A stretch of 64,000 nt of DNA, from the IMG/VR virus record IMGVR_UViG_3300037247_001358, positions 5,344 to 69,343 of that record; one strand, written 5' to 3'. Made by a program: the position numbers and the translations under genes. Shown piece by piece: positions 45,374 through 53,333 of the stretch. Under the pieces are notes generated by a model. That model ran no database searches and was not told where the DNA came from. It saw only the letters and a program-made list of their open reading frames with translations. How positions within the stretch are numbered: position 1 is the first letter of the stretch; each line of letters opens with the position of its first letter. Source of the DNA: a virus.

Positions 45374-45714
45374 TGGCTACTCAAGAGCCCTGCTTAGTCC
45401 ACGGGCCACAGCCCATTCCTCCCCATCGAGCAGGGCGGTTCCTCAAGCTAATCTGTTGCGTCCACCTCGATCAGCAGTCGGTCGTCCTCTATCGACAGTT
45501 CCCTCCTTGGGGGGACACTATACACCGATACCCTTGGAGCTTGCGGTGGGAACTACCTTATCCTCCCCCAGACGAGGACAAGTTACGTGAGAGCTACCAC
45601 ATTGAGTTTGCTGACGAGCGAATAGCGCAGGCCATCTTCGAGCACTGTCGACGGGAGATGCTGAGCGACGCCACACCCAACTCCGCTAGGAACTGGACGG
45701 CGTTGCTAATATGA
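45373..45714 (+). CDS. hypothetical protein
   Basis: TGATG-coupled, GAGG SD. Confidence 0.55.
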   Translation: MATQEPCLVHGPQPIPPHRAGRFLKLICCVHLDQQSVVLYRQFPPWGDTIHRYPWSLRWELPYPPPDEDKLRESYHIEFADERIAQAIFEHCRREMLSDATPNSARNWTALLI

Positions 45715-48700
45715 CGGCACCAAAGGACTGCGATCGCTGTCCTGCCCTGGTCAAGTGCCGGAAGACGGTGGTAAATGGTTGGGGCAACCCGGATGCCCGC
45801 TTCGCGTTCGTAGGACAGAACCCCGGAGAATCTGAAGACGCTCAGGGCCGGCCCTTCATCGGACGGGCCGGCCGCGTCCTCGCCACCATGATCCGGTCGG
45901 CTGACATCAACGTCGACGACGTCTTCCTCACCAACGCCGTCCGCTGCCTCACCCCGGCGATTAGGAAGCCTCGCAAGGATGAGTGGTCCGCCTGCCGGGA
46001 GTTCTTGCTGGAGGAGCTAGGGCGGGTCAAGCCGGACGTCATCGTCGCTCTTGGCGAGGTGGCCGCCCACACCCTCTACGGCCGTACGTCGCTCGACTCT
46101 GTGCTCGGGCAGACCCTCGTGCAGGAGGAGCTGGGCATCCAACTCATCGTCACGTATCACCCGGCCTTCGTATTGCGTGGTCAGTGGAACGCCGTCCCGC
46201 TCATCCTCTCCCACTTCGAGAAGGCCAAGCGCATCGTCGCCGGGACACAGACGCTCGGGGAGCTGGGCGACTACGCACCGATCCTCACTATCGAGAACCT
46301 CAAGCTCCTACGGGACTACCTGCTGTCGGCTCCGCTTATCCACCTTGATTCCGAAACAACCGGCAAAGAGTGGAAGGACGATGAGCTGCTTTGCATCTCC
46401 TTTGCTACCGAGCCGGGTGAGGGCTACGTCGTCCCCATCCTCCAGCGGGGAGGGGGTCGCTTCTGGGCCGACACTGAGCAAGCGGAGGCGATGATGATCA
46501 TAGGTGAGATCCTCGCTTCGCCAGTACCCAAGGCTCTCCAGGGTGGGGCCTTCGACATCAGGTTCTTCGAGCGGGAGCGTTCTTACCACATCACCGCACG
46601 GACGGCGTTCGGTTGGAGGTTGTTCAACCTCCAGCAGGACACCATGCTCATGCACCGGCTAACCCACGAGTACCTACCCAAGGAATCGACGCCGAACGAA
46701 CTCCCCCACCTTCTCAGCTCCTATTCGGACATGCCTGTCTACGGGGACGAGGTGCGCAAGCAGTCGAAGAACAAGCTCCACATGGATGAGGTGGAGAACC
46801 GCTACCTCTGGGAATTGGCGGCCGCCGATGCGGACGCCGTCGCCCGCCTCGTCCCTATCCTGGGACAGCAGCTAGACGAGGACGGCGACAGCCGCTGGAT
46901 CTACGAGAACGTCAGCATCCCGATGGTTCGCTGCTGCCAGGAGATGACCCGGCGGGGGATGCTCGTCGACCAGGACTACTTCACCAGCCTGTGCGAGCAC
47001 TACGAGCAGAAGGCCAGAGAGCTAGAGAAGCAGGCGTTTGAGATCGCAGGGCGGGAGTTCAACCCGAACTCGACGAAGCAAGTCCAGGACGTGCTGTTCC
47101 GCGAGCTGGCCCTCCCCAAGTCCGGTCGCAAGACCGGGGCCGCTACCGAGTGTGACGCCTGCGAGAAGGGTGCCTGCGAAAAGCACGATCAGGTCTCGGA
47201 GGACGCGCTGCTCGACATCAAGGGGCAGGTTGACCACCCCATCCTCGATGTCCTAATGGAGATCCGCAGTGTCTCTAAGCTACGGGGCACCTATCTCGCG
47301 GGCACCGGCGGAGACAGCCAGGGCTTCCTGGGCCACATCCGGCGAGACGGCCGCATCCACCCGGAGTTCAAGGGCGGGTTTGCGGAAACTGGAAGAGCCG
47401 CATCCCAGAATCCGAACGCCCAAAACATCCCCAAAGGTGTCGAGATCGAGGAGCTAGGTACGAAGAACGCCTTCCGCCGTACCTTCATTGCTCCCCCCGG
47501 TCACGTCCTCATGGAAGCAGACTGGTCCCAGGCAGAGGTCTGGGTGACGGCCTACGGGCTGGCCGAGCAGTTCGGCGACCGGACCCTACTAGAGATCCTC
47601 GAGTCGGGGCGCGACGTCCACTGCGTCACACCGGAGACCCGGATTTTGACGGCGGATCTCCTTTGGAAGGAGGCCGGACAGATCGTAGTTGGGGAGAAAA
47701 TCCTTGGCTTCGATGAGGATCGGGCCAAAGGCAAGACACGGCACTACCGGGCCGCAACTATCGTAGCCGCAAACAGGCAGAAGGCCCGTGTGTACGAACT
47801 ACGCCTATCGGACGGGACGCGCCTACGCTCTACCGGAGACCATCGATGGCTGGTGAAGACGCGGGGTAAAGTAGACCGGGATACCAGAATGTACGCTTGG
47901 GTTCGCACCGATGAACTGGCCCAGCGTTGCAAGAGCCCTTGGAAGAAGCGCGGGCCTGTCCTGCCACGATACTTCCAACCGTGGGAGAGTGGGCAAGACT
48001 ATGATAGTGGCTTCTTGGCGGGGGCATTTGATGGTGAGGGTTCCTTGTCAGGCTACGCGGGGCGTTACCGAGCACGGCTGGCATTCGTGCAGAACGACAA
48101 CGCTCTCCTACGCGACGTCGAGATCGTCCTAAAGCAGAAGGGACACACCTACGGACGACATGAGCGGAGCACCTCAACATCGCCTCGGACAGGGCTACCT
48201 ACAGGTAATACAGTCGTACAGCTCGAACTGAACAACGGATTTGCTGGAACGCTCCGCTTCCTGGGCGAGATGCGCCCACCACGCCTTCTCGAGAAATGGC
48301 AGGAGATGTTCGAGAAGGATGAGTTTCTGGAGATGCGTGCCATCGATCAGGTCGTCGTTGAGGAGGTCATCGACCTGGGGGAGCAAACCATCATGGCGCT
48401 CCAATCCAATTGCCAAACCTACTTCGCCGAAGGGTTTGGGGCACACAACACCGCTGTCGGCCGCGCCATCTGGCCCGTCGACCTAGAGCTGGATGAGTTC
48501 GAGTGGGCTAAGGAGCACGACGACCTCCGCACCGACGCCAAGGTCTTCACCTTCGGGATCACCTTCGGCCTCACCGTTGAGGGGATCATGGAGCGGCTAC
48601 ACTGCTCGAAAGAAGACGCTCAGCGCTACCTGGTGGCCTACCTGGAGATGGCACCGGGCCTGCGAGACTACAAGGACTACGTCCAGAACACCATACTGGC

Positions 48701-49181
48701 GGGAGAGCCTCTCACCAACAAGTTTGGGAGGCAGTGGCACTTCCCTCAAGTGGAAGTCATGAAGCTGTGCAACGCCAGGTTCGACCTCGAAGAACTGTTC
48801 CGTGAGGGAGTTAACCGGGGTATTCAAGGCGGGGCGTCCGACCTCCACTCACTAGCCCACGTCGACACGGAGTCCAACCCGAAGATGCGTGAGGTCTTCC
48901 GCATCATCGACGCCGTCCATGACTCCTGCCTCGCCGAGGTCCCGGCACCGGATCTCGCCACCGTGCTCGAGACGGCCTGGATGGTGAAGCACCTCTGGCA
49001 GGAGATCGCGCTCAACACCGTGCTGGCCGATGGCTCGAAGCTCGGCTGGCAGATCCCGGTAGAGGTGAGTTGGGGCCGGAACTGGGGGGATATGCCGTAC
49101 GTCCTAACCGCCCGTGGTGGCCTCCTCTACAAAGGCCAGCCGGTGCAGACGGATATGACGGCAGCACTTCCCATAGCTTAG
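45711..49181 (+). CDS. polA: family A DNA polymerase with N-terminal family-4 uracil-DNA glycosylase domain and 3'-5' exonuclease; contains an intein
   Basis: UDG: CxxCxxL, GQNPG..E...G.PFIG.AG, NAVRC, YHPA; exonuclease DSET; polymerase TGR..S.NPN.QNIP, ADWSQAE, AK...FG, IQG, VHDS. Confidence 0.95.
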   Translation: MTAPKDCDRCPALVKCRKTVVNGWGNPDARFAFVGQNPGESEDAQGRPFIGRAGRVLATMIRSADINVDDVFLTNAVRCLTPAIRKPRKDEWSACREFLLEELGRVKPDVIVALGEVAAHTLYGRTSLDSVLGQTLVQEELGIQLIVTYHPAFVLRGQWNAVPLILSHFEKAKRIVAGTQTLGELGDYAPILTIENLKLLRDYLLSAPLIHLDSETTGKEWKDDELLCISFATEPGEGYVVPILQRGGGRFWADTEQAEAMMIIGEILASPVPKALQGGAFDIRFFERERSYHITARTAFGWRLFNLQQDTMLMHRLTHEYLPKESTPNELPHLLSSYSDMPVYGDEVRKQSKNKLHMDEVENRYLWELAAADADAVARLVPILGQQLDEDGDSRWIYENVSIPMVRCCQEMTRRGMLVDQDYFTSLCEHYEQKARELEKQAFEIAGREFNPNSTKQVQDVLFRELALPKSGRKTGAATECDACEKGACEKHDQVSEDALLDIKGQVDHPILDVLMEIRSVSKLRGTYLAGTGGDSQGFLGHIRRDGRIHPEFKGGFAETGRAASQNPNAQNIPKGVEIEELGTKNAFRRTFIAPPGHVLMEADWSQAEVWVTAYGLAEQFGDRTLLEILESGRDVHCVTPETRILTADLLWKEAGQIVVGEKILGFDEDRAKGKTRHYRAATIVAANRQKARVYELRLSDGTRLRSTGDHRWLVKTRGKVDRDTRMYAWVRTDELAQRCKSPWKKRGPVLPRYFQPWESGQDYDSGFLAGAFDGEGSLSGYAGRYRARLAFVQNDNALLRDVEIVLKQKGHTYGRHERSTSTSPRTGLPTGNTVVQLELNNGFAGTLRFLGEMRPPRLLEKWQEMFEKDEFLEMRAIDQVVVEEVIDLGEQTIMALQSNCQTYFAEGFGAHNTAVGRAIWPVDLELDEFEWAKEHDDLRTDAKVFTFGITFGLTVEGIMERLHCSKEDAQRYLVAYLEMAPGLRDYKDYVQNTILAGEPLTNKFGRQWHFPQVEVMKLCNARFDLEELFREGVNRGIQGGASDLHSLAHVDTESNPKMREVFRIIDAVHDSCLAEVPAPDLATVLETAWMVKHLWQEIALNTVLADGSKLGWQIPVEVSWGRNWGDMPYVLTARGGLLYKGQPVQTDMTAALPIA
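47622..48449 (+). mobile_element. intein with LAGLIDADG homing endonuclease motif (276 aa)
   Basis: Begins CVTPETRIL after DVH, block B TGDHRW, FLAGAFDGEGS, ends HN before Thr+1. Confidence 0.92.
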
Positions 49182-49184
49182 TCG

Positions 49185-49223
49185 CAGACAGACTTGACGC
49201 AGGCCCTTCCTGTCGCTTAGACT
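49185..49223 (+). promoter_or_regulatory. promoter TTGACG-18-TAGACT within CAGACAGACTTGACGCA box
   Basis: Upstream of endolysin. Confidence 0.7.
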
Positions 49224-49232
49224 AAGGGGGAG

Positions 49233-49934
49233 ATGGTCTACACACAGACCCCCTTCCCACCTGACTATCCCAGTATCGTCGTGCCCGCGCATCCGGGGAA
49301 CGTCGACGAGCGACAGCCCAACGCCCCCAGAGCGCTCATGTTGCACACGCCGGAGGAACCCGTCGATGACTACGAGTCGACTCCCGTTTACTTCTCCAGC
49401 GATAGGGGAGCAGCTACCCACTATTACTCTGATTCCGATGGGGACTGGTACCAGATGGTTCCTGAAGCCGTCGGTGCGATCGCCAACGGGCGCCGCAACA
49501 AGCCCCGCCCGACCTGGGCTGTGCCTGGGATCTCTCTAAACCTGCAAACGATCAGTGTTGAGATTGAGGGGTATGCCGCCGCTATGCACCGGACGATGCC
49601 TCGTGGCGGACGACAGTGGAACGCCGTCGTCCGCTGGGTAGAGAACCGCAGCAGGCAGCACCTCATCCCCCTCGACCGCGCTCACATCATGGGCCACTAC
49701 GAGGTGGCCGACAATCGCAGCGACCCAGGCACCTTGAACATCGACCTAATCGTTGAAGATGCGCGCAAACTCAGGGAGGCACACATGACCCCCAACAAGG
49801 TAGACGTCATCGAGGCCACCAACGATTTCGCCGGCACGTTCGCGGAGGCCCAGGGCTACATGCTCCGTCAGGAGAAGCTGCCACGCGGGCTGCGTGACCG
49901 GCTCCAGGCGATCCTCAACCTCGCCAACCGATGA
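49233..49934 (+). CDS. N-acetylmuramoyl-L-alanine amidase (endolysin, Amidase_2)
   Basis: LHT, THY, SVEIEG, GH.E.....SDPG. Confidence 0.88.
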   Translation: MVYTQTPFPPDYPSIVVPAHPGNVDERQPNAPRALMLHTPEEPVDDYESTPVYFSSDRGAATHYYSDSDGDWYQMVPEAVGAIANGRRNKPRPTWAVPGISLNLQTISVEIEGYAAAMHRTMPRGGRQWNAVVRWVENRSRQHLIPLDRAHIMGHYEVADNRSDPGTLNIDLIVEDARKLREAHMTPNKVDVIEATNDFAGTFAEAQGYMLRQEKLPRGLRDRLQAILNLANR

Positions 49935-50593
49935 CCAAGAACGCTAGTCGGCAGCTCCAGGCTAGGGACGCGGACGGCCTCACGCTCATGCAGCGCCGCG
50001 CCCTCCAGGCGCTAGCCCTCACGGACGACTGGCGCGACGCCTGTACGGAAGCCCAGGTCTCACCCAATTCGGTCATGCACTGGCTCTCCAACAACGAAGC
50101 CTTCCGCGCCGCCTACAACGATATTCTCCGCCCGAACATCTCCATCATCCGCGACATGATGGAGACGACGGCTCTCAAGGCCACCGGAATGTACGATGAA
50201 GCAGTCACGGCCGTCAAGATGGTTGAGTTGGAGATCGTGTGCCCAAGCTGTGCGCACAAGTTCTCCCTCACCAATCCCCAGCCAGACTGGTCCACCCGCC
50301 TCCGGGCGGGAGACACAGCGATGCGGGTGGCCAAGGTCCTCAAGGACGTGAAGGAGATCGAGGGCACCATCACCCATCTCAACATGGAGGAGAGCTTGGC
50401 CCTTGCCAGCGCGCGATACGCCATTCGCCGTGGGCAGACCCCTACCATCCCGCCCCAGATGATGGCGAAGCTGCGATCCTACTTACCAGAGGAGGCACCG
50501 AATGAGGCTAGTTCCGGTCCAATCGTCGATGCTCGCGTCGATGGGATTCGACCCGTCGACGGAGACCTTGGTGATCCAGTTTCAGAACGGTAA
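49931..50593 (+). CDS. N-terminal HTH protein, possible terminase small subunit
   Basis: LT..QRR.L..L.....ACTEAQVS...V..W.....F; internal CPSC; function is inference. Confidence 0.5.
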   Translation: MTKNASRQLQARDADGLTLMQRRALQALALTDDWRDACTEAQVSPNSVMHWLSNNEAFRAAYNDILRPNISIIRDMMETTALKATGMYDEAVTAVKMVELEIVCPSCAHKFSLTNPQPDWSTRLRAGDTAMRVAKVLKDVKEIEGTITHLNMEESLALASARYAIRRGQTPTIPPQMMAKLRSYLPEEAPNEASSGPIVDARVDGIRPVDGDLGDPVSER

Positions 50594-50741
50594 GCTCTAC
50601 CGCTACTCTGGCGTGCCCTCTGAGACCTTCGTCGCCCTCATTACGGCCAAAGAGAGCCACGGGAAGGCTTTCGCTGAACTGATCAAGAGTCGGGCTTTTC
50701 CCTACACAAAGGTCGAGCCCGACGAAGTTCTTGGGCTATAG
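50502..50741 (+). CDS. KTSC domain protein
   Basis: VQSSML.SMGFD.....L.IQF..G..YRY.GVP......L..A..S.GK.F. Confidence 0.9.
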   Translation: MRLVPVQSSMLASMGFDPSTETLVIQFQNGKLYRYSGVPSETFVALITAKESHGKAFAELIKSRAFPYTKVEPDEVLGL

Positions 50742-50748
50742 ATGACAC

Positions 50749-51009
50749 GTGGCAGAAAACGTACCCGCCACAAGAACAAAGACCGCCGTACAGCGCCGCG
50801 CCGACCAGATGGGAGCGGCGCTACGGTACTTCCGAGGACCCCAGTGGACGGAGCACCCGGACCGGATCGTGATGAAGGCAGGGCGGATAGCCATCCGTCT
50901 CCTAGCGGTGAACCAGGTGCTCAAGGAGACCGAAGGGTCAGTCCTGCTCGCACCATCGACCGAGTCCGCCCTCGAGCAACTCATCCACTCGGACCAGCGC
51001 GTCCAATAG
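50749..51009 (+). CDS. hypothetical protein
   Basis: GTG start; more protein-like than the overlapping frame. Confidence 0.55.
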   Translation: MAENVPATRTKTAVQRRADQMGAALRYFRGPQWTEHPDRIVMKAGRIAIRLLAVNQVLKETEGSVLLAPSTESALEQLIHSDQRVQ

Positions 51010-52190
51010 TCCGCCCATACCGCCTTCGCTCGGCCACCGACGCACCGTCGGCGATAGATTTCGCCCAGTGGTTCCAGCAGCAGCGCCAAGAGGCGCTCGG
51101 TGTCGCCCTACGCTATCAGATGGGCCTCGCCCGCGATCGGACGCTCGGCTTCGCCAATGCTGAGGAGGGCTGGCAGGTGGACATGGGGCGCAACGACATC
51201 GTGGATGACGCCGTCAACAACGCCCTCAAGAGTCTCACTGGCCCCGATGCCCCCTCTCTCATCTTCCAGGACGCTACACGAACCGTCCCCATTCTCGTCG
51301 AGCAACTCGGCGAAAAGGGTATAGGCATCGACCTGAAGGGGTTGCTCAAGCTCATGGTGGGGGATCTCCAGGTGCTCCAGGACTGTGTCGGGCGCCGGAT
51401 AGAGCAAGGATCGTTTCAGAGCCCCGCAGATGAGGCTTACGCGGCCTTCACGGCAGAACAGCACTGGGGGGCGAGTGCTCCTGCTTTCTACCGCTCAGTG
51501 GGCCTCCCGTGGCTCTCACAGCGGATCTACGTGGCCTCCTCTCCCCCGGAAGGGGTGCCCTGGAGGATCTCCTACAGCGACCTCTTCCTCCGCGTCCTCG
51601 CCCACTTCACCCGGGAGCCTCTCCTGGTCGCCGCCTTTGTCGATGGACGTGATCCAGTCGCAGAGCTTGGCCCCCGTCTTGGCATGGATGACGAGAACCA
51701 GATCATCGCCGTCATGTTCTGGGCGGCGACCAGCTTCGACGCCGTCTATCTCTCTGAGCACCACCCCAAGGTCTATGAGTTGCTACCGGACGGGCTGGCC
51801 GATCTCCGCCAGGCCGTCGAGCGGCAGTTCTCCACGCTCTGCCTAGCCGTCATCCACCTACGGGAGGACTACACCCAGAACCGCCAGCTCCAGACACTCT
51901 ACGGTCGCTGGCTCCTTTGGGGCCTGCCGCTGCCGGAGGCGTTGTCCCAGATGTGGCTAGGGAGTGTTCAGGACATCCTGGACGTGGTCTCGGTATCCAT
52001 CGCCTCCTTCTGGGGGGAGGAGCCGCTGCCGGTCTGGCCGGTGGCCGAGGAACTGCTGGAGCGCGTCATCCGCGTCCGGGGCTGCGCCCCCAACGACCGG
52101 GGAGAGTGGCTCCCGATCCTGGAAGGGGTCCCGCAGGCGAGCTGGCCCCTGTCGGTGCCTGGGGCACCCGTGGTGATCTGGGGGGAGTAA
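51006..52190 (+). CDS. degenerate, probably inactive family A DNA polymerase paralog
   Basis: ISYSDLFLRVLAHF...L.AAF.DGRD (motif A region lacking Asp), QTLYGR, EAL....LGSVQDI; start uncertain (ATA 51006 or ATG downstream). Confidence 0.7.
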   Translation: MVRPYRLRSATDAPSAIDFAQWFQQQRQEALGVALRYQMGLARDRTLGFANAEEGWQVDMGRNDIVDDAVNNALKSLTGPDAPSLIFQDATRTVPILVEQLGEKGIGIDLKGLLKLMVGDLQVLQDCVGRRIEQGSFQSPADEAYAAFTAEQHWGASAPAFYRSVGLPWLSQRIYVASSPPEGVPWRISYSDLFLRVLAHFTREPLLVAAFVDGRDPVAELGPRLGMDDENQIIAVMFWAATSFDAVYLSEHHPKVYELLPDGLADLRQAVERQFSTLCLAVIHLREDYTQNRQLQTLYGRWLLWGLPLPEALSQMWLGSVQDILDVVSVSIASFWGEEPLPVWPVAEELLERVIRVRGCAPNDRGEWLPILEGVPQASWPLSVPGAPVVIWGE

Positions 52191-52205: not shown

Positions 52206-52625
52206 ATGCGAGTAGTGATCAATCCAGGATCAGGCCCCATAGATGGCGGTACGGCAGAGTTGGCTGAGGAGAACATGCGGCACCTCATCGCCGATGTAGA
52301 GGCGGGAGAGGCTGAGGCCGCACTGCGGCACCTCGAAGAGGGAGGCTACCCCCTCGGCCAATGGAAGTTCGTGCCGGTAGAACCGGAGGACTACGGTGAT
52401 GGGCGCTTCGCCTTCTTGATCTGGCGAGGGAACAAGTGCCACCTGATCCAGATGCCTGGTCTATCGCTGGAGAAGGTGCGGTATGTGGGCGAGCACCAAA
52501 ACATCTGGGACTACCCACGCCTGTACGTAGACGACGGCAGTTGGGTGTGGCGCTTCGCAATCAACATCATCGTGAAGGGAACGGGTGAAGAAGAGGCTGA
52601 GCCCTCGACCGAGGCGCGTAGCTAG
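52206..52625 (+). CDS. conserved phage hypothetical protein
   Basis: AAGGAGG SD; PRLYVDDGSW.W motif. Confidence 0.7.
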   Translation: MRVVINPGSGPIDGGTAELAEENMRHLIADVEAGEAEAALRHLEEGGYPLGQWKFVPVEPEDYGDGRFAFLIWRGNKCHLIQMPGLSLEKVRYVGEHQNIWDYPRLYVDDGSWVWRFAINIIVKGTGEEEAEPSTEARS

Positions 52626-53089
52626 GGAAGGATTAGGCTCGTCCGCCGAGGTAGAGCATCCGAGCGCATCTGAACCACATGGCTAGGGAGCCCCGTAGGG
52701 CAGGCCAGGATGCAGATGCCGACGTCGCCCTTGACGACCACCCGCCTCTCCTCATTGCCCTCTAGGTAGTTCAAGATGTCGCCAGGCTGAAACTCCTGGA
52801 TGATGCGGAGCCGGTGTGAGCAGCCCTCGACCAAGCAGTCCATCCCTGAGTCGGGACCGCCGGTGCCGGTGATGGCCGGACCGGCTGGTGGCGGGGCGAC
52901 TACCTCGTAGCCCCTGTTGGCGTAGAGCCAGCCGGAGTCCGGGTGGGCATCGGGGTCGTCGGGACGCTCGTTCGGGGGGAACCTGTGGTGGCGGTCGATC
53001 TCGCGCGGGAGCCTGCCCTGCCGCTCCTTCTCCGCCCGCTCCTCACGGAGTTCCCGGAGCTGCTCCTCTAGGGGCTTCTGTGGAGTCAT
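52622..53089 (-). CDS. hypothetical protein
   Basis: ATG at 53089; C...C.H...C....H. Confidence 0.55.
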   Translation of the reverse strand: MTPQKPLEEQLRELREERAEKERQGRLPREIDRHHRFPPNERPDDPDAHPDSGWLYANRGYEVVAPPPAGPAITGTGGPDSGMDCLVEGCSHRLRIIQEFQPGDILNYLEGNEERRVVVKGDVGICILACPTGLPSHVVQMRSDALPRRTSLILP

Positions 53090-53144
53090 CCCAAGACCAG
53101 ATCCCAGAAGTTGAAGCAAAGCCAGACGAGAGTGAAGAGGAGGA

Positions 53145-53333
53145 TCACCGTCTCGCCGCCAGGACCGCACCGGCGAAGGCTCGGAGGGCGCCTGCCAGGG
53201 CCGCTACGAAGTAGGTGCGCCAGTCTTGGATAACGGCCTCTGGATCCAGCTCGGCTAGTAGCTGCAAGACAAAGACGCCGGCGGCCACCCCACCAACCCA
53301 GATCAGCTCCTGTACGTGTTTGAAATCGTACAT
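53145..53333 (-). CDS. putative holin
   Basis: 62 aa, two hydrophobic helices, basic C-terminus, end of tail operon. Confidence 0.6.
   Translation of the reverse strand: MYDFKHVQELIWVGGVAAGVFVLQLLAELDPEAVIQDWRTYFVAALAGALRAFAGAVLAARR

What the first reader, a model, noticed from the sequence alone, without database searches (positions are those of the whole stretch)
51006..52190. Second, catalytically dead PolA-like protein near the active polymerase
Seen: RISYSDLFLRVLAHFTREPLLVAAFVDGRDPVAEL parallels PolA motif A (ADYSQIELRVLAHLS.D..L..AF..G.DIH) with the catalytic Asp replaced by Ser and Glu by Phe. QTLYGR and EAL..MWLGSVQDIL parallel TLFGR and AAIN.PIQG.AADI. Motif B Lys and motif C HD are not recognisable. 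The N-terminal part loosely parallels the phage's own exonuclease domain (LGFANAEEGWQV vs ISFATEPGEGYVV), and the thumb region appears deleted. The roughly 390-codon frame is intact, suggesting selection. Inference: an exapted pseudo-enzyme, such as a processivity or replisome adaptor, nucleic-acid binder, or decoy for defence systems that sense phage polymerases.
Basis: partly seen in the sequence, partly recalled or inferred. Interest (0 to 1): 0.75.

Follow-up and report, generated by a model that had tools for sequence, protein, structure and literature searches.

The report
Dead, thumbless second phage DNA polymerase
An uncultured phage keeps, a few genes after its working DNA polymerase, a second polymerase-shaped protein that has lost its thumb and every catalytic residue yet is strictly conserved, and whose front end is written in a second reading frame over another small gene.

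Summary
The protein encoded from 51006 to 52187 is a true relative of family A DNA polymerases. A profile of 45 family members matches Taq Pol I at E 3e-13. The AlphaFold2 model (pLDDT 94.6) aligns 354 of 394 residues to Pol I large fragments at Z 23-25. The thumb is missing, and the motif A and motif C carboxylates, the motif B lysine and the exonuclease DxE are lost across the family. It is not a pseudogene: dN/dS is 0.13-0.16, against 0.14 for the active polymerase in related phages.

The family has 74 representatives, all metagenomic, and no match in 50,697 GenBank phage records. In 7 of 7 related viral loci it lies downstream of a UDG-fused active PolA.

New here: 51006 is not a start codon. 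The frame runs from ATG 50742 (482 aa), and its first 88 codons, a polybasic arm, overlap a conserved 86-aa ORF in another frame. Both frames stay open more often than chance allows.

The function is untested; I favour a non-catalytic replication helper. The closest published cases, divPolA1 and divPolA2, are predicted to be active.

The parts
50742..52190 (+). Full open frame of the polymerase-like gene (482 codons plus stop), from the ATG that directly follows the TAG of the KTSC gene
   Evidence: Relatives called as 475-491 aa share this layout.
50742..51005 (+). N-terminal arm of 88 codons: polybasic start (MTRGRKRTRHKNKDRR...), then a Pro/Gly/Asp/Glu-rich stretch, pI 11.8. It is read in the -1 frame relative to the small ORF (overprinted)
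   Evidence: GC by codon position is 0.75/0.705/0.455, unlike normal genes here. The frame is open in 7 of 8 overlapping loci despite 1.3-6.7 stops expected. pI.
50749..51009 (+). Conserved 86-aa small ORF (GTG start; an ATG at 50809 is also possible), basic (pI 10), predicted three helices. It lies entirely within the arm's DNA, in another frame
   Evidence: Normal GC3 pattern. 51% identical to the ORF at the same place in L001. Relatives of 86 and 66 aa exist. Fold pLDDT 72.7. The small frame is kept open in the related group, P 0.04-0.19 per locus.
51006..51410 (+). Degenerate 3'-5' exonuclease-like domain (body residues 1 to about 135). The strand where Exo I DxE should lie reads ALGVALRY
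   Evidence: Model secondary structure. VIA-align covers model residues 1-394 against Pol I large fragments that include the exo domain. Family alignment. The assignment of the Exo I strand is inferred.
51423..52187 (+). Palm and fingers remnant without a thumb (body residues 140-394)
   Evidence: Profile match to KlenTaq chain 315-529 at E 3.2e-13. Z 23-25.
51561..51605 (+). Motif A-like WRISYSDLFLRVLAH: catalytic Asp replaced by Ser189, Glu by Phe194
51894..51908 (+). TLYGR, counterpart of PolA TLFGR(RR). Y299 and R301 are nearly invariant in the family
52062..52085 (+). Strand RVIRVRGC at the place of motif C (..QVHDE). Gly359 is invariant where the second catalytic Asp should be
   Evidence: Residue-by-residue assignment is inferred.
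50502..50741 (+). KTSC-domain gene, the conserved upstream neighbour. Its TAG stop abuts ATG 50742
   Evidence: Pfam PF13619 at E 1e-17. Found in all 8 related loci.
49931..50593 (+). 220-aa gene weakly like a terminase small subunit or HTH protein, a conserved member of the module
   Evidence: Pfam Sf6_terminase at E 0.011 and PHROG 4044 at E 5.6e-4, both weak. tblastn finds it in 6 of 8 related loci.
45711..49181 (+). [quoted passage not shown]
   Evidence: Pfam hits. 41-43% identical homologues lie upstream of the dead paralogue in 7 of 7 IMG/VR loci.
52622..53170 (-). 182-aa gene of unknown function, conserved next to the dead polymerase in relatives (same strand as it in the IMG/VR loci, opposite strand here and in L001)
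   Evidence: tblastn finds it in 7 of 8 loci. No Pfam or PHROG family.

Best explanation
This is a pseudo-polymerase: a family A DNA polymerase (exonuclease, palm and fingers) that lost its thumb, both metal-binding carboxylates, the dNTP-binding lysine and the exonuclease DxE. It is kept under purifying selection as strong as that on the phage's working polymerase. It cannot make or degrade DNA by the PolA mechanism (shown at the level of sequence and fold).

It is most likely translated from ATG 50742, about 0.6. This adds an 88-residue polybasic, probably disordered arm whose codons are overprinted on an older 86-aa gene. The two start codons lie 7 nt apart, so one ribosome landing site could give both proteins (inferred).

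I propose, at about 0.35, that the acidic polymerase-shaped body acts as a non-catalytic helper or scaffold in DNA replication or processing beside the UDG-PolA, and that the basic arm holds it on nucleic acid. The analogy is the dead polymerase module of Pol epsilon. This part is inference from context only.
For: Homology:
- The 45-member profile matches Taq Pol I at E 3.2e-13.
- The model has pLDDT 94.6 and pTM 0.92.
- Foldseek top hits are all family A polymerases.
- VIA-align gives Z 24.8 with 354 of 394 residues aligned.
- The Atlas features and structure searches agree.

Loss of catalysis across the family: column counts.

Selection:
- dN/dS is 0.149, 0.126 and 0.164 in three pairs, against 0.144 for the active PolA.
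- 74 representatives at E <= 1e-3.
- Inteins sit in 3 members, one inside the motif A-like site.

Context:
- The gene lies at the end of the + strand block that holds a UvsW-like helicase, DnaB-like helicase, primase, gp32-like SSB, RecA and PolA.
- The order UDG-PolA ... KTSC, small ORF/dead PolA is kept in 7 of 7 IMG/VR loci at 27-29% identity.

Start and overlap:
- No canonical start lies between 50844 and 51120, yet residues from 51009 on are conserved, and distant relatives begin there with Met.
- P(long frame open) under synonymous shuffles of the small ORF is 0.26, 0.15, 0.04, 0.02, 0.011, <0.00025 and 0.006 in seven loci.
- Both halves of the arm contribute to this signal.
- The reciprocal test for the small frame gives 0.04-0.19 in five loci.
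- In L004 an HNH gene sits in frame between the small ORF and the body, with no start near the body, and the body is still under selection.

Charge: arm pI 11.8, body pI 4.7.
Against: - No experiment or expression data; the function rests on gene order and analogy.
- The gene shares a promoter-like site at 49194 with an amidase (endolysin-like) and a terminase-small-like gene. That would fit a late or packaging role as well as replication.
- The body is not closer to the phage's own PolA than to Taq: hhalign E 2e-5 over 110 columns. It is therefore not a recent duplicate, and co-evolution with that polymerase is not shown.
- For the window and L001 alone the open long frame is not unusual (P 0.26 and 0.15); the signal comes from the lower-GC relatives.
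- In L008 the long frame has two stops after codon 21 and restarts at a new ATG, so the polybasic tip is dispensable there.
- A conserved GTG at 50844 with GAGGA 5 nt upstream could be the real or a second start.
- The loci are related, so multiplying the per-locus P values overstates the case.
- The small ORFs of the two groups are not demonstrably homologous (hhalign probability 4%).
Confidence: 0.5

Rival explanations
1. Gene-structure rival. The polymerase-like protein starts at or near the end of the small ORF, by termination-reinitiation at a near-cognate codon such as ATA 51006 or at an internal GTG such as 50844. The polybasic tip is then not part of the protein.
For: - ATA 51006 overlaps the TAG of the small ORF (ATAG), as ATGA does in coupled genes.
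- Distant relatives of about 390 aa start with Met at this very position.
- Another first-reader note claims several near-cognate starts in this genome (e1-6181101; not checked here).
- GTG 50844 is conserved in L001 and is preceded by GAGGA.
- L008 lacks the tip.
Against: - L001 has no ATA, ATG, GTG or TTG at the equivalent place, and there is no SD-like motif before 51006.
- The frame is open up to an ATG beside the small ORF's start in 7 of 8 loci, against 1.3-6.7 expected stops. The first 35 codons alone give P from 0.68 down to 0.006.
- Polybasic N-termini recur in 14 or so called relatives.
Confidence: 0.25
2. The protein works in genome packaging or end processing with the neighbouring terminase-small-like protein, for example in handling the direct terminal repeats, and not in replication.
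For: - The conserved module is TerS-like, KTSC, small ORF/dead PolA.
- In the window it follows an amidase gene behind a promoter-like site.
- The genome has direct terminal repeats.
Against: - The terminase-small assignment is weak: Pfam E 0.011, PHROG E 5.6e-4, and no hit for the L006 homologue.
- No large terminase gene is adjacent.
Confidence: 0.12
3. It is a decoy or shield: a polymerase-shaped protein that soaks up a host defence sensor or inhibitor aimed at phage family A polymerases.
For: - It keeps the overall PolA shape without activity.
- It evolves faster than the active PolA: 27-29% against 41-43% identity between the same genomes.
- It is restricted to one phage lineage.
Against: - dN/dS is as low as for the active PolA, with no sign of an arms race.
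- The thumb and much of the DNA-facing surface that a sensor might read are missing.
- It is not similar to the phage's own PolA.
- No defence context is known.
Confidence: 0.1
4. A programmed -1 ribosomal frameshift fuses the small ORF to the polymerase-like body.
For: - The small ORF is in the +1 frame relative to the body in all loci.
- It ends within 15 nt of the body's first conserved residues.
- The body has no start codon of its own.
Against: - No X XXY YYZ slippery heptamer and no conserved site at the junction in 7 loci.
- A frameshift would not require the body's frame to stay open back to the ATG.
- In L004 the small ORF is separated from the body by an HNH gene.
Confidence: 0.04

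Closest known systems
divPolA1 and divPolA2, divergent extra family A polymerases of phages (Virol J 2024, 21:200, PMC11348598; passages read)
   Same: A second PolA-like gene beside a regular polymerase in tailed phages. The thumb is truncated (divPolA1) or absent (divPolA2). In divPolA1 the exonuclease aspartates are replaced.
   Different: The paper predicts both to be active polymerases with conserved palm catalytic residues; here those residues are lost across the family. Their hosts are 155-190 kb and 80-85 kb phages, against 50-75 kb contigs here. tblastn of four members of this family against 50,697 phage records found nothing. Sequence kinship to divPolA1/2 was not tested directly.
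Bacterial Pol I large fragment (KlenTaq, Bst, M. smegmatis Pol1) and phage UDG-PolA (N4-like cluster 17 of Czernecki et al. 2023, PMC10201439; passages read)
   Same: The same exo, palm and fingers fold (Z 23-25). The motifs RVLAH, TLYGR and G(S/T)VxDI and the C-terminal PLxVPL are retained.
   Different: No thumb, no catalytic carboxylates, no motif B Lys, no Exo I DxE. It scores below Pfam's cut-off: 12.8 against 34.3 bits. That survey states that catalytic residues are strictly conserved in all 19 clusters.
Inactivated polymerase-exonuclease module in the C-terminal half of eukaryotic Pol epsilon (Biol Direct 2009, 4:11, PMC2669801; search listing and start of the abstract only)
   Same: A polymerase-plus-exonuclease module that lost catalysis and is kept beside an active paralogue, with a structural role (the role is recalled, not read here).
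   Different: It belongs to family B, not A. It is fused to the active half rather than being a separate gene, and it is eukaryotic.
Overprinted (overlapping) viral genes (review in Genes 2021, 12:809, PMC8227390; search listing and start of the abstract only)
   Same: A second frame laid over an existing gene gives a compositionally odd, probably disordered peptide.
   Different: Here the overprinted part is the N-terminal arm of a large old protein rather than a separate new protein, and the overlap covers the whole small gene.

Membership tests
Family A DNA polymerase (Pfam PF00476), as a homologue | Significant sequence and fold similarity to the PolA palm and fingers | tested here: met
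   Profile against PDB sequences, E 3.2e-13. Foldseek E 9e-11. VIA-align Z 24.8.
Family A DNA polymerase (Pfam PF00476), as a homologue | Reaches Pfam's gathering score | tested here: not met
   12.8 bits against 34.3. 10 of 45 members match at E <= 0.1, best 0.0044, and none reaches the cut-off.
Family A DNA polymerase, as an enzyme | Motif A Asp and motif C Asp that hold the two metals | tested here: not met
   Position 189 is acidic in 4 of 45. Position 359 is Gly in 45 of 45, and position 360 is acidic in 2 of 45.
Family A DNA polymerase, as an enzyme | Motif B Lys (and Tyr) of the O helix | tested here: not met
   Position 242 is L, C, T, H, F, Y, S, I or E, never K or R. The column assignment comes from the HMM alignment.
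Family A DNA polymerase, as an enzyme | Thumb subdomain | tested here: not met
   KlenTaq chain residues of about 164-314 have no counterpart. The model goes from helix 160-178 straight to the motif A strand 184-191. That this gap is the thumb is recalled knowledge of Taq Pol I.
DEDD 3'-5' exonuclease domain of PolA | Exo I DxE and the other acidic residues | tested here: not met
   The strand at the Exo I place reads A-L-G-V-A-L-R-Y here and (V/I)A(V/L/F)(K/R) in relatives. The alignment to Exo I is inferred from strand order, not from a residue-level superposition.
divPolA1 (PMC11348598) | Truncated thumb and inactivated exonuclease | tested here: met
   definition from passages read.
divPolA1 (PMC11348598) | Main palm catalytic residues conserved (predicted active) | tested here: not met
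divPolA1 (PMC11348598) | Sequence kinship with the type proteins | not tested
   No divPolA1 sequence was fetched. tblastn of four family members against GenBank phages found nothing, which is only indirect.
Overlapping (dual-coding) gene pair | Both frames kept open beyond what the other frame's protein allows | tested here: met
   exception L008.
Overlapping (dual-coding) gene pair | Both products made | not testable with these tools
   Needs proteomics or ribosome profiling.
Programmed -1 frameshift gene | Slippery heptamer at a conserved site before the upstream stop | tested here: not met
   Junctions of 7 loci read by eye in both frames.

The most novel reading that the evidence does not exclude
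This would be the first family A pseudo-polymerase that is a fixed, non-catalytic subunit of a phage replisome, a bacterial-virus counterpart of the dead module of Pol epsilon. Its DNA-tethering polybasic arm would have arisen by overprinting a pre-existing small gene. One ribosome landing site with two start codons 4-7 nt apart would then yield two proteins in two frames across a whole lineage of uncultured 50-75 kb phages.
Probability: 0.22. Interest if true: 0.8.

Novelty: new variant of a known kind. Interest (0 to 1): 0.62.

Why it matters
Dead copies of enzymes often turn out to be regulators or scaffolds of their active relatives. For DNA polymerases this is established in family B (Pol epsilon). 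I found no report for family A in three full-text searches or in the two surveys of phage and cellular PolAs that I read in part. A 2023 survey states that all 19 PolA clusters keep their catalytic residues.

A strictly conserved, thumbless, doubly dead PolA beside a UDG-fused polymerase offers a handle on how these little-known phages build their replisome. The fully nested two-frame arrangement is a clean natural case for studying how a new protein segment is born over an old gene.

Practically, the family is invisible to Pfam (at its own cut-off), PHROGs and NCBIfam. It is called with wrong starts in public gene sets: 356 aa for this very genome.

Tried and rejected
- Complex prediction of the small ORF product with the polymerase-like body: score 0.00, no verdict. 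It is not used as evidence either way.
- The small ORF as a displaced thumb: its model is a three-helix protein of middling confidence (pLDDT 72.7). I did not search folds with it, so the idea is neither supported nor excluded.
- Homology between the small ORFs of the window group and of the IMG/VR group: hhalign probability 4%; not shown. phmmer of the small ORF against all 80 fetched family proteins found nothing below E 0.09, so no relative carries it fused in frame.
- Recent duplication of the phage's own PolA: rejected. hhalign to the L006 PolA gives only E 2e-5 over 110 columns.
- Pseudogene: rejected by dN/dS.
- -1 frameshift: no slippery site.
- Scans for more loci found nothing with alignment A1 in viral contigs and genome contigs, nor with A3, A4 and A9 in viral contigs. 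The context of most subfamilies is therefore unknown. All context evidence comes from two subgroups: the window plus L001, and L003-L009.
- Pfam and PHROGs on the conserved neighbours (182-aa gene, 215-aa gene) gave nothing.
- I had no model coordinates in the script box. Residue-level superposition, surface charge and conservation mapping were therefore not done.
- No RNA or read data were consulted.
- Supplementary files of the two PolA surveys were not seen. They may list sequences of this family under other labels.
Full report
WHAT IS THERE. The window is most of a 69,343-bp virus record with direct terminal repeats, rated complete. On the + strand lies a block of replication genes: a UvsW-like helicase, a DnaB-like helicase, a primase, a gp32-like SSB and RecA. 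A HerA-like ATPase and a 1156-aa family A polymerase follow; the polymerase is made of a UDG-like domain, a 3'-5' exonuclease, the polymerase domain and a LAGLIDADG intein. Next come an amidase, a 220-aa protein weakly like a terminase small subunit, a KTSC-domain protein and then the finding. A promoter-like site at 49194-49223 precedes the amidase.

THE OBSERVATION. On the single sequence Pfam sees only a weak DNA_pol_A match at the motif A region: E 0.056, 12.8 bits against a cut-off of 34.3. An exhaustive HMMER search of 1.84 billion representatives found 74 relatives at E <= 1e-3 (54 at <= 1e-10, 11 at <= 1e-30). Most are 350-410 aa.

A profile of 45 of them (I left out fragments, intein carriers and forms with long N-terminal extensions) matches Taq Pol I large fragment at E 3.2e-13, from motif A to the C-terminus. 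AlphaFold2 on this alignment gives pLDDT 94.6 and pTM 0.92. Foldseek returns only family A polymerases at the top, both in the PDB (E 9e-11) and among viral models. VIA-align gives Z 24.8 to M. smegmatis Pol1 and Z about 23 to Bst, with about 354 of 394 residues aligned to chains of about 570-580 residues that include the exonuclease domain. The homology is therefore established and covers the whole protein.

DEAD ON ALL COUNTS. Counts are from the 45-member alignment.
- The motif A Asp position (S189 here) is T, S, A, V, K, Q or R, and acidic in only 4 of 45.
- The motif A Glu position (F194) is L, W or F in 43 of 45.
- The strand at the place of motif C ends in a Gly that is invariant (45 of 45) where I place the second Asp. 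The next residue is acidic in 2 of 45.
- The motif B Lys position is never basic.
- The strand where Exo I (DxE) belongs reads ALGVALRY, and A-x-(K/R) in relatives. This assignment rests on strand order.
- About 150 KlenTaq residues between the N-terminal palm helix and motif A have no counterpart. From recalled knowledge of Taq Pol I, that is where the thumb lies.

What is retained are structural PolA signatures: RVLAH, TLYGR, G(S/T)VxDI and the C-terminal PLxVPL.

NOT A PSEUDOGENE. Nei-Gojobori dN/dS for the body is 0.149 (L003/L005), 0.126 (L004/L007) and 0.164 (L003/L006). The active PolA gives 0.144 in L005/L006. Two further body pairs and two further PolA pairs were saturated at synonymous sites and gave no ratio.

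Three family members carry inteins (P0040, P0043 and the fragment P0049). The intein of P0040 sits inside the motif A-like site. It is 36% identical (E 2e-48) to the intein of the window's active PolA.

WHERE IT OCCURS. tblastn of four members against 50,697 GenBank phage records found nothing. No PHROG and no NCBIfam model matches. 10 of 45 members touch PF00476 at E <= 0.1 and none reaches the cut-off.

I could fetch DNA for only two subgroups. L001 is a 4.5-kb metagenome contig, 51% identical. Seven IMG/VR loci, L003-L009, come from contigs of 8-76 kb and are 27-29% identical. In 7 of 7 IMG/VR loci a UDG-PolA (41-43% identical to the window's) lies 1-3 kb upstream. The KTSC gene is found in all 8 loci, the TerS-like gene in 6 of 8 and the 182-aa neighbour in 7 of 8. 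The active PolA of this lineage is only 22-24% identical to any cultured phage's. This is therefore a deep, uncultured group.

THE START, AND A SECOND FRAME. Position 51006 is ATA. In the body's frame the only canonical starts before ATG 51120 are ATG 50742 and GTG 50844. ATG 51120, used by the public gene call for this genome (356 aa), is not conserved in relatives. Residues from 51009 on (VRPYR...) are conserved, and distant relatives begin there with Met.

Upstream, the DNA carries an 86-aa ORF (50749..51009) in the +1 frame. It has the genome's normal GC pattern by codon position (0.705/0.455/0.75), whereas the body's frame there reads 0.75/0.705/0.455. The small ORF is 51% identical to its L001 counterpart, against 35% for the other frame. 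Relatives of it have been called elsewhere.

The same layout recurs in the IMG/VR group. A 95-100-aa ORF, not demonstrably homologous, ends within 15 nt of the body's first conserved residues and lies fully inside the body's upstream frame.

I resampled synonymous codons of the small ORF and asked how often the body's frame stays open. The answers were 0.26 (window), 0.15 (L001), 0.04, 0.02, 0.011, <0.00025 and 0.006, with 1.3-6.7 stops expected. An earlier run with other codon weights gave 0.17 and 0.18 for the first two. Both the first 35 codons and the rest contribute. The reciprocal test for the small frame gives 0.19, 0.17, 0.11, 0.044 and 0.04 in L003, L005, L006, L007 and L009. For the window and L001 the test was spoilt by the fixed TGA inside ATGA at the start. 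The loci are related, so these values must not simply be multiplied, but the trend is clear: both frames are kept.

There are two exceptions, and they are informative. L008 has two stops after codon 21 of the long frame and a fresh ATG about 62 codons before the body. L004 has an HNH endonuclease gene (PF13392, E 6e-14) inserted in frame between the small ORF and the body, with no start near the body. In both, translation must still enter the body from upstream.

The junctions show no slippery heptamer. I therefore read the gene as 50742..52190, 482 aa. It has an 88-residue arm of pI 11.8, polybasic at its tip, over an acidic body of pI 4.7. Polybasic N-termini recur in about 14 of the called relatives.

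HOW IT MIGHT WORK. Shown: it cannot catalyse by the PolA mechanism; it is under strong constraint; and it travels with a UDG-PolA and the KTSC, small-ORF and 182-aa genes. Inferred: it is a non-catalytic helper in replication or DNA processing, with the basic arm providing nucleic-acid contact and the polymerase-shaped body providing protein contacts.

Against a simple partnership with the phage's own PolA, the body is no closer to that PolA than to Taq. Its transcription unit also holds an amidase and a terminase-small-like gene, so a late or packaging role is a live rival. A decoy role is possible, but nothing here supports it.

COMPARISON WITH WHAT IS KNOWN. Czernecki et al. 2023 (PMC10201439; passages read) sort PolAs into 19 clusters. 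They state that catalytic residues are strictly conserved in all of them, and their N4-like cluster 17 has the UDG fusion seen in the active enzyme here.

The 2024 study of polymerase swapping (PMC11348598; passages read) describes divPolA1 (truncated thumb, dead exonuclease, catalytic palm kept) and divPolA2 (no thumb, active palm). Both are extra polymerases predicted to be active. The present family shares the missing thumb and dead exonuclease but has also lost the palm residues, so it is not a member of either.

Three full-text searches found no report of a family A pseudo-polymerase; the term 'pseudo-polymerase' occurred in none of the 15 papers listed. The scan itself has seen this before. 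Note e1-5909218 describes a thumbless, residue-less second PolA downstream of the working polymerase in a 75-kb phage. Note e1-6188858 describes an HNH-fused inactive PolA, like L004. The look-up by sequence found no look-alike, so I cannot say that those are the same family.

VERDICT. The gene boundaries are corrected and a nested two-frame arrangement is added. The function remains open.

Noticed in passing
window 47622-48449 (inside the PolA gene 45711..49181); protein P0040: The active PolA carries a LAGLIDADG intein just after motif A (..RDVH|C...HN|T..). A 36% identical intein (E 2e-48) sits inside the motif A-like site of a dead-PolA family member (P0040). P0043 and the fragment P0049 carry inteins at another site. 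Inteins thus move between, or persist in, both the live and the dead polymerase genes.
   Followed up: partly
L004 9536-11260: An HNH endonuclease gene (PF13392) is inserted in frame between the small ORF and the dead-PolA body, duplicating the ...EER(F/L)..WP.. junction. There is no start codon near the body, yet the body is under purifying selection against L007 (dN/dS 0.126). This predicts an HNH-pseudo-polymerase fusion protein.
   Followed up: partly
L008 9975-10250: In this relative the long frame over the small ORF has two stops after 21 codons, followed at once by a new ATG. The polybasic tip is lost but about 62 overprinted codons remain.
   Followed up: yes
window 50739-50751: TAG of the KTSC gene, ATG of the long frame and GTG of the small ORF lie within 13 nt (TAGATGACACGTG). 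L001 has TAGATGAGTG. The three genes look translationally coupled.
   Followed up: no
window 50830-50846: GTG 50844, in the body's frame, is conserved in L001 (GTG 1084) and preceded by GAGGA at 5 nt. It is a possible second start giving a form without the polybasic tip.
   Followed up: partly
window 52206-52625: The 139-aa ORF just downstream has no counterpart in any of the 8 related loci (tblastn) and no Pfam or PHROG family.
   Followed up: partly
window 51120-52190: The public gene call for this genome starts at ATG 51120 (356 aa, P0001). It cuts off 38 conserved residues, and that ATG is absent from relatives.
   Followed up: yes
window 45711-49181 and L003-L009: The UDG-fused PolA of this lineage is at most 24% identical to that of any of 50,697 GenBank phages. 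The whole group appears to be uncultured and deep-branching.
   Followed up: partly
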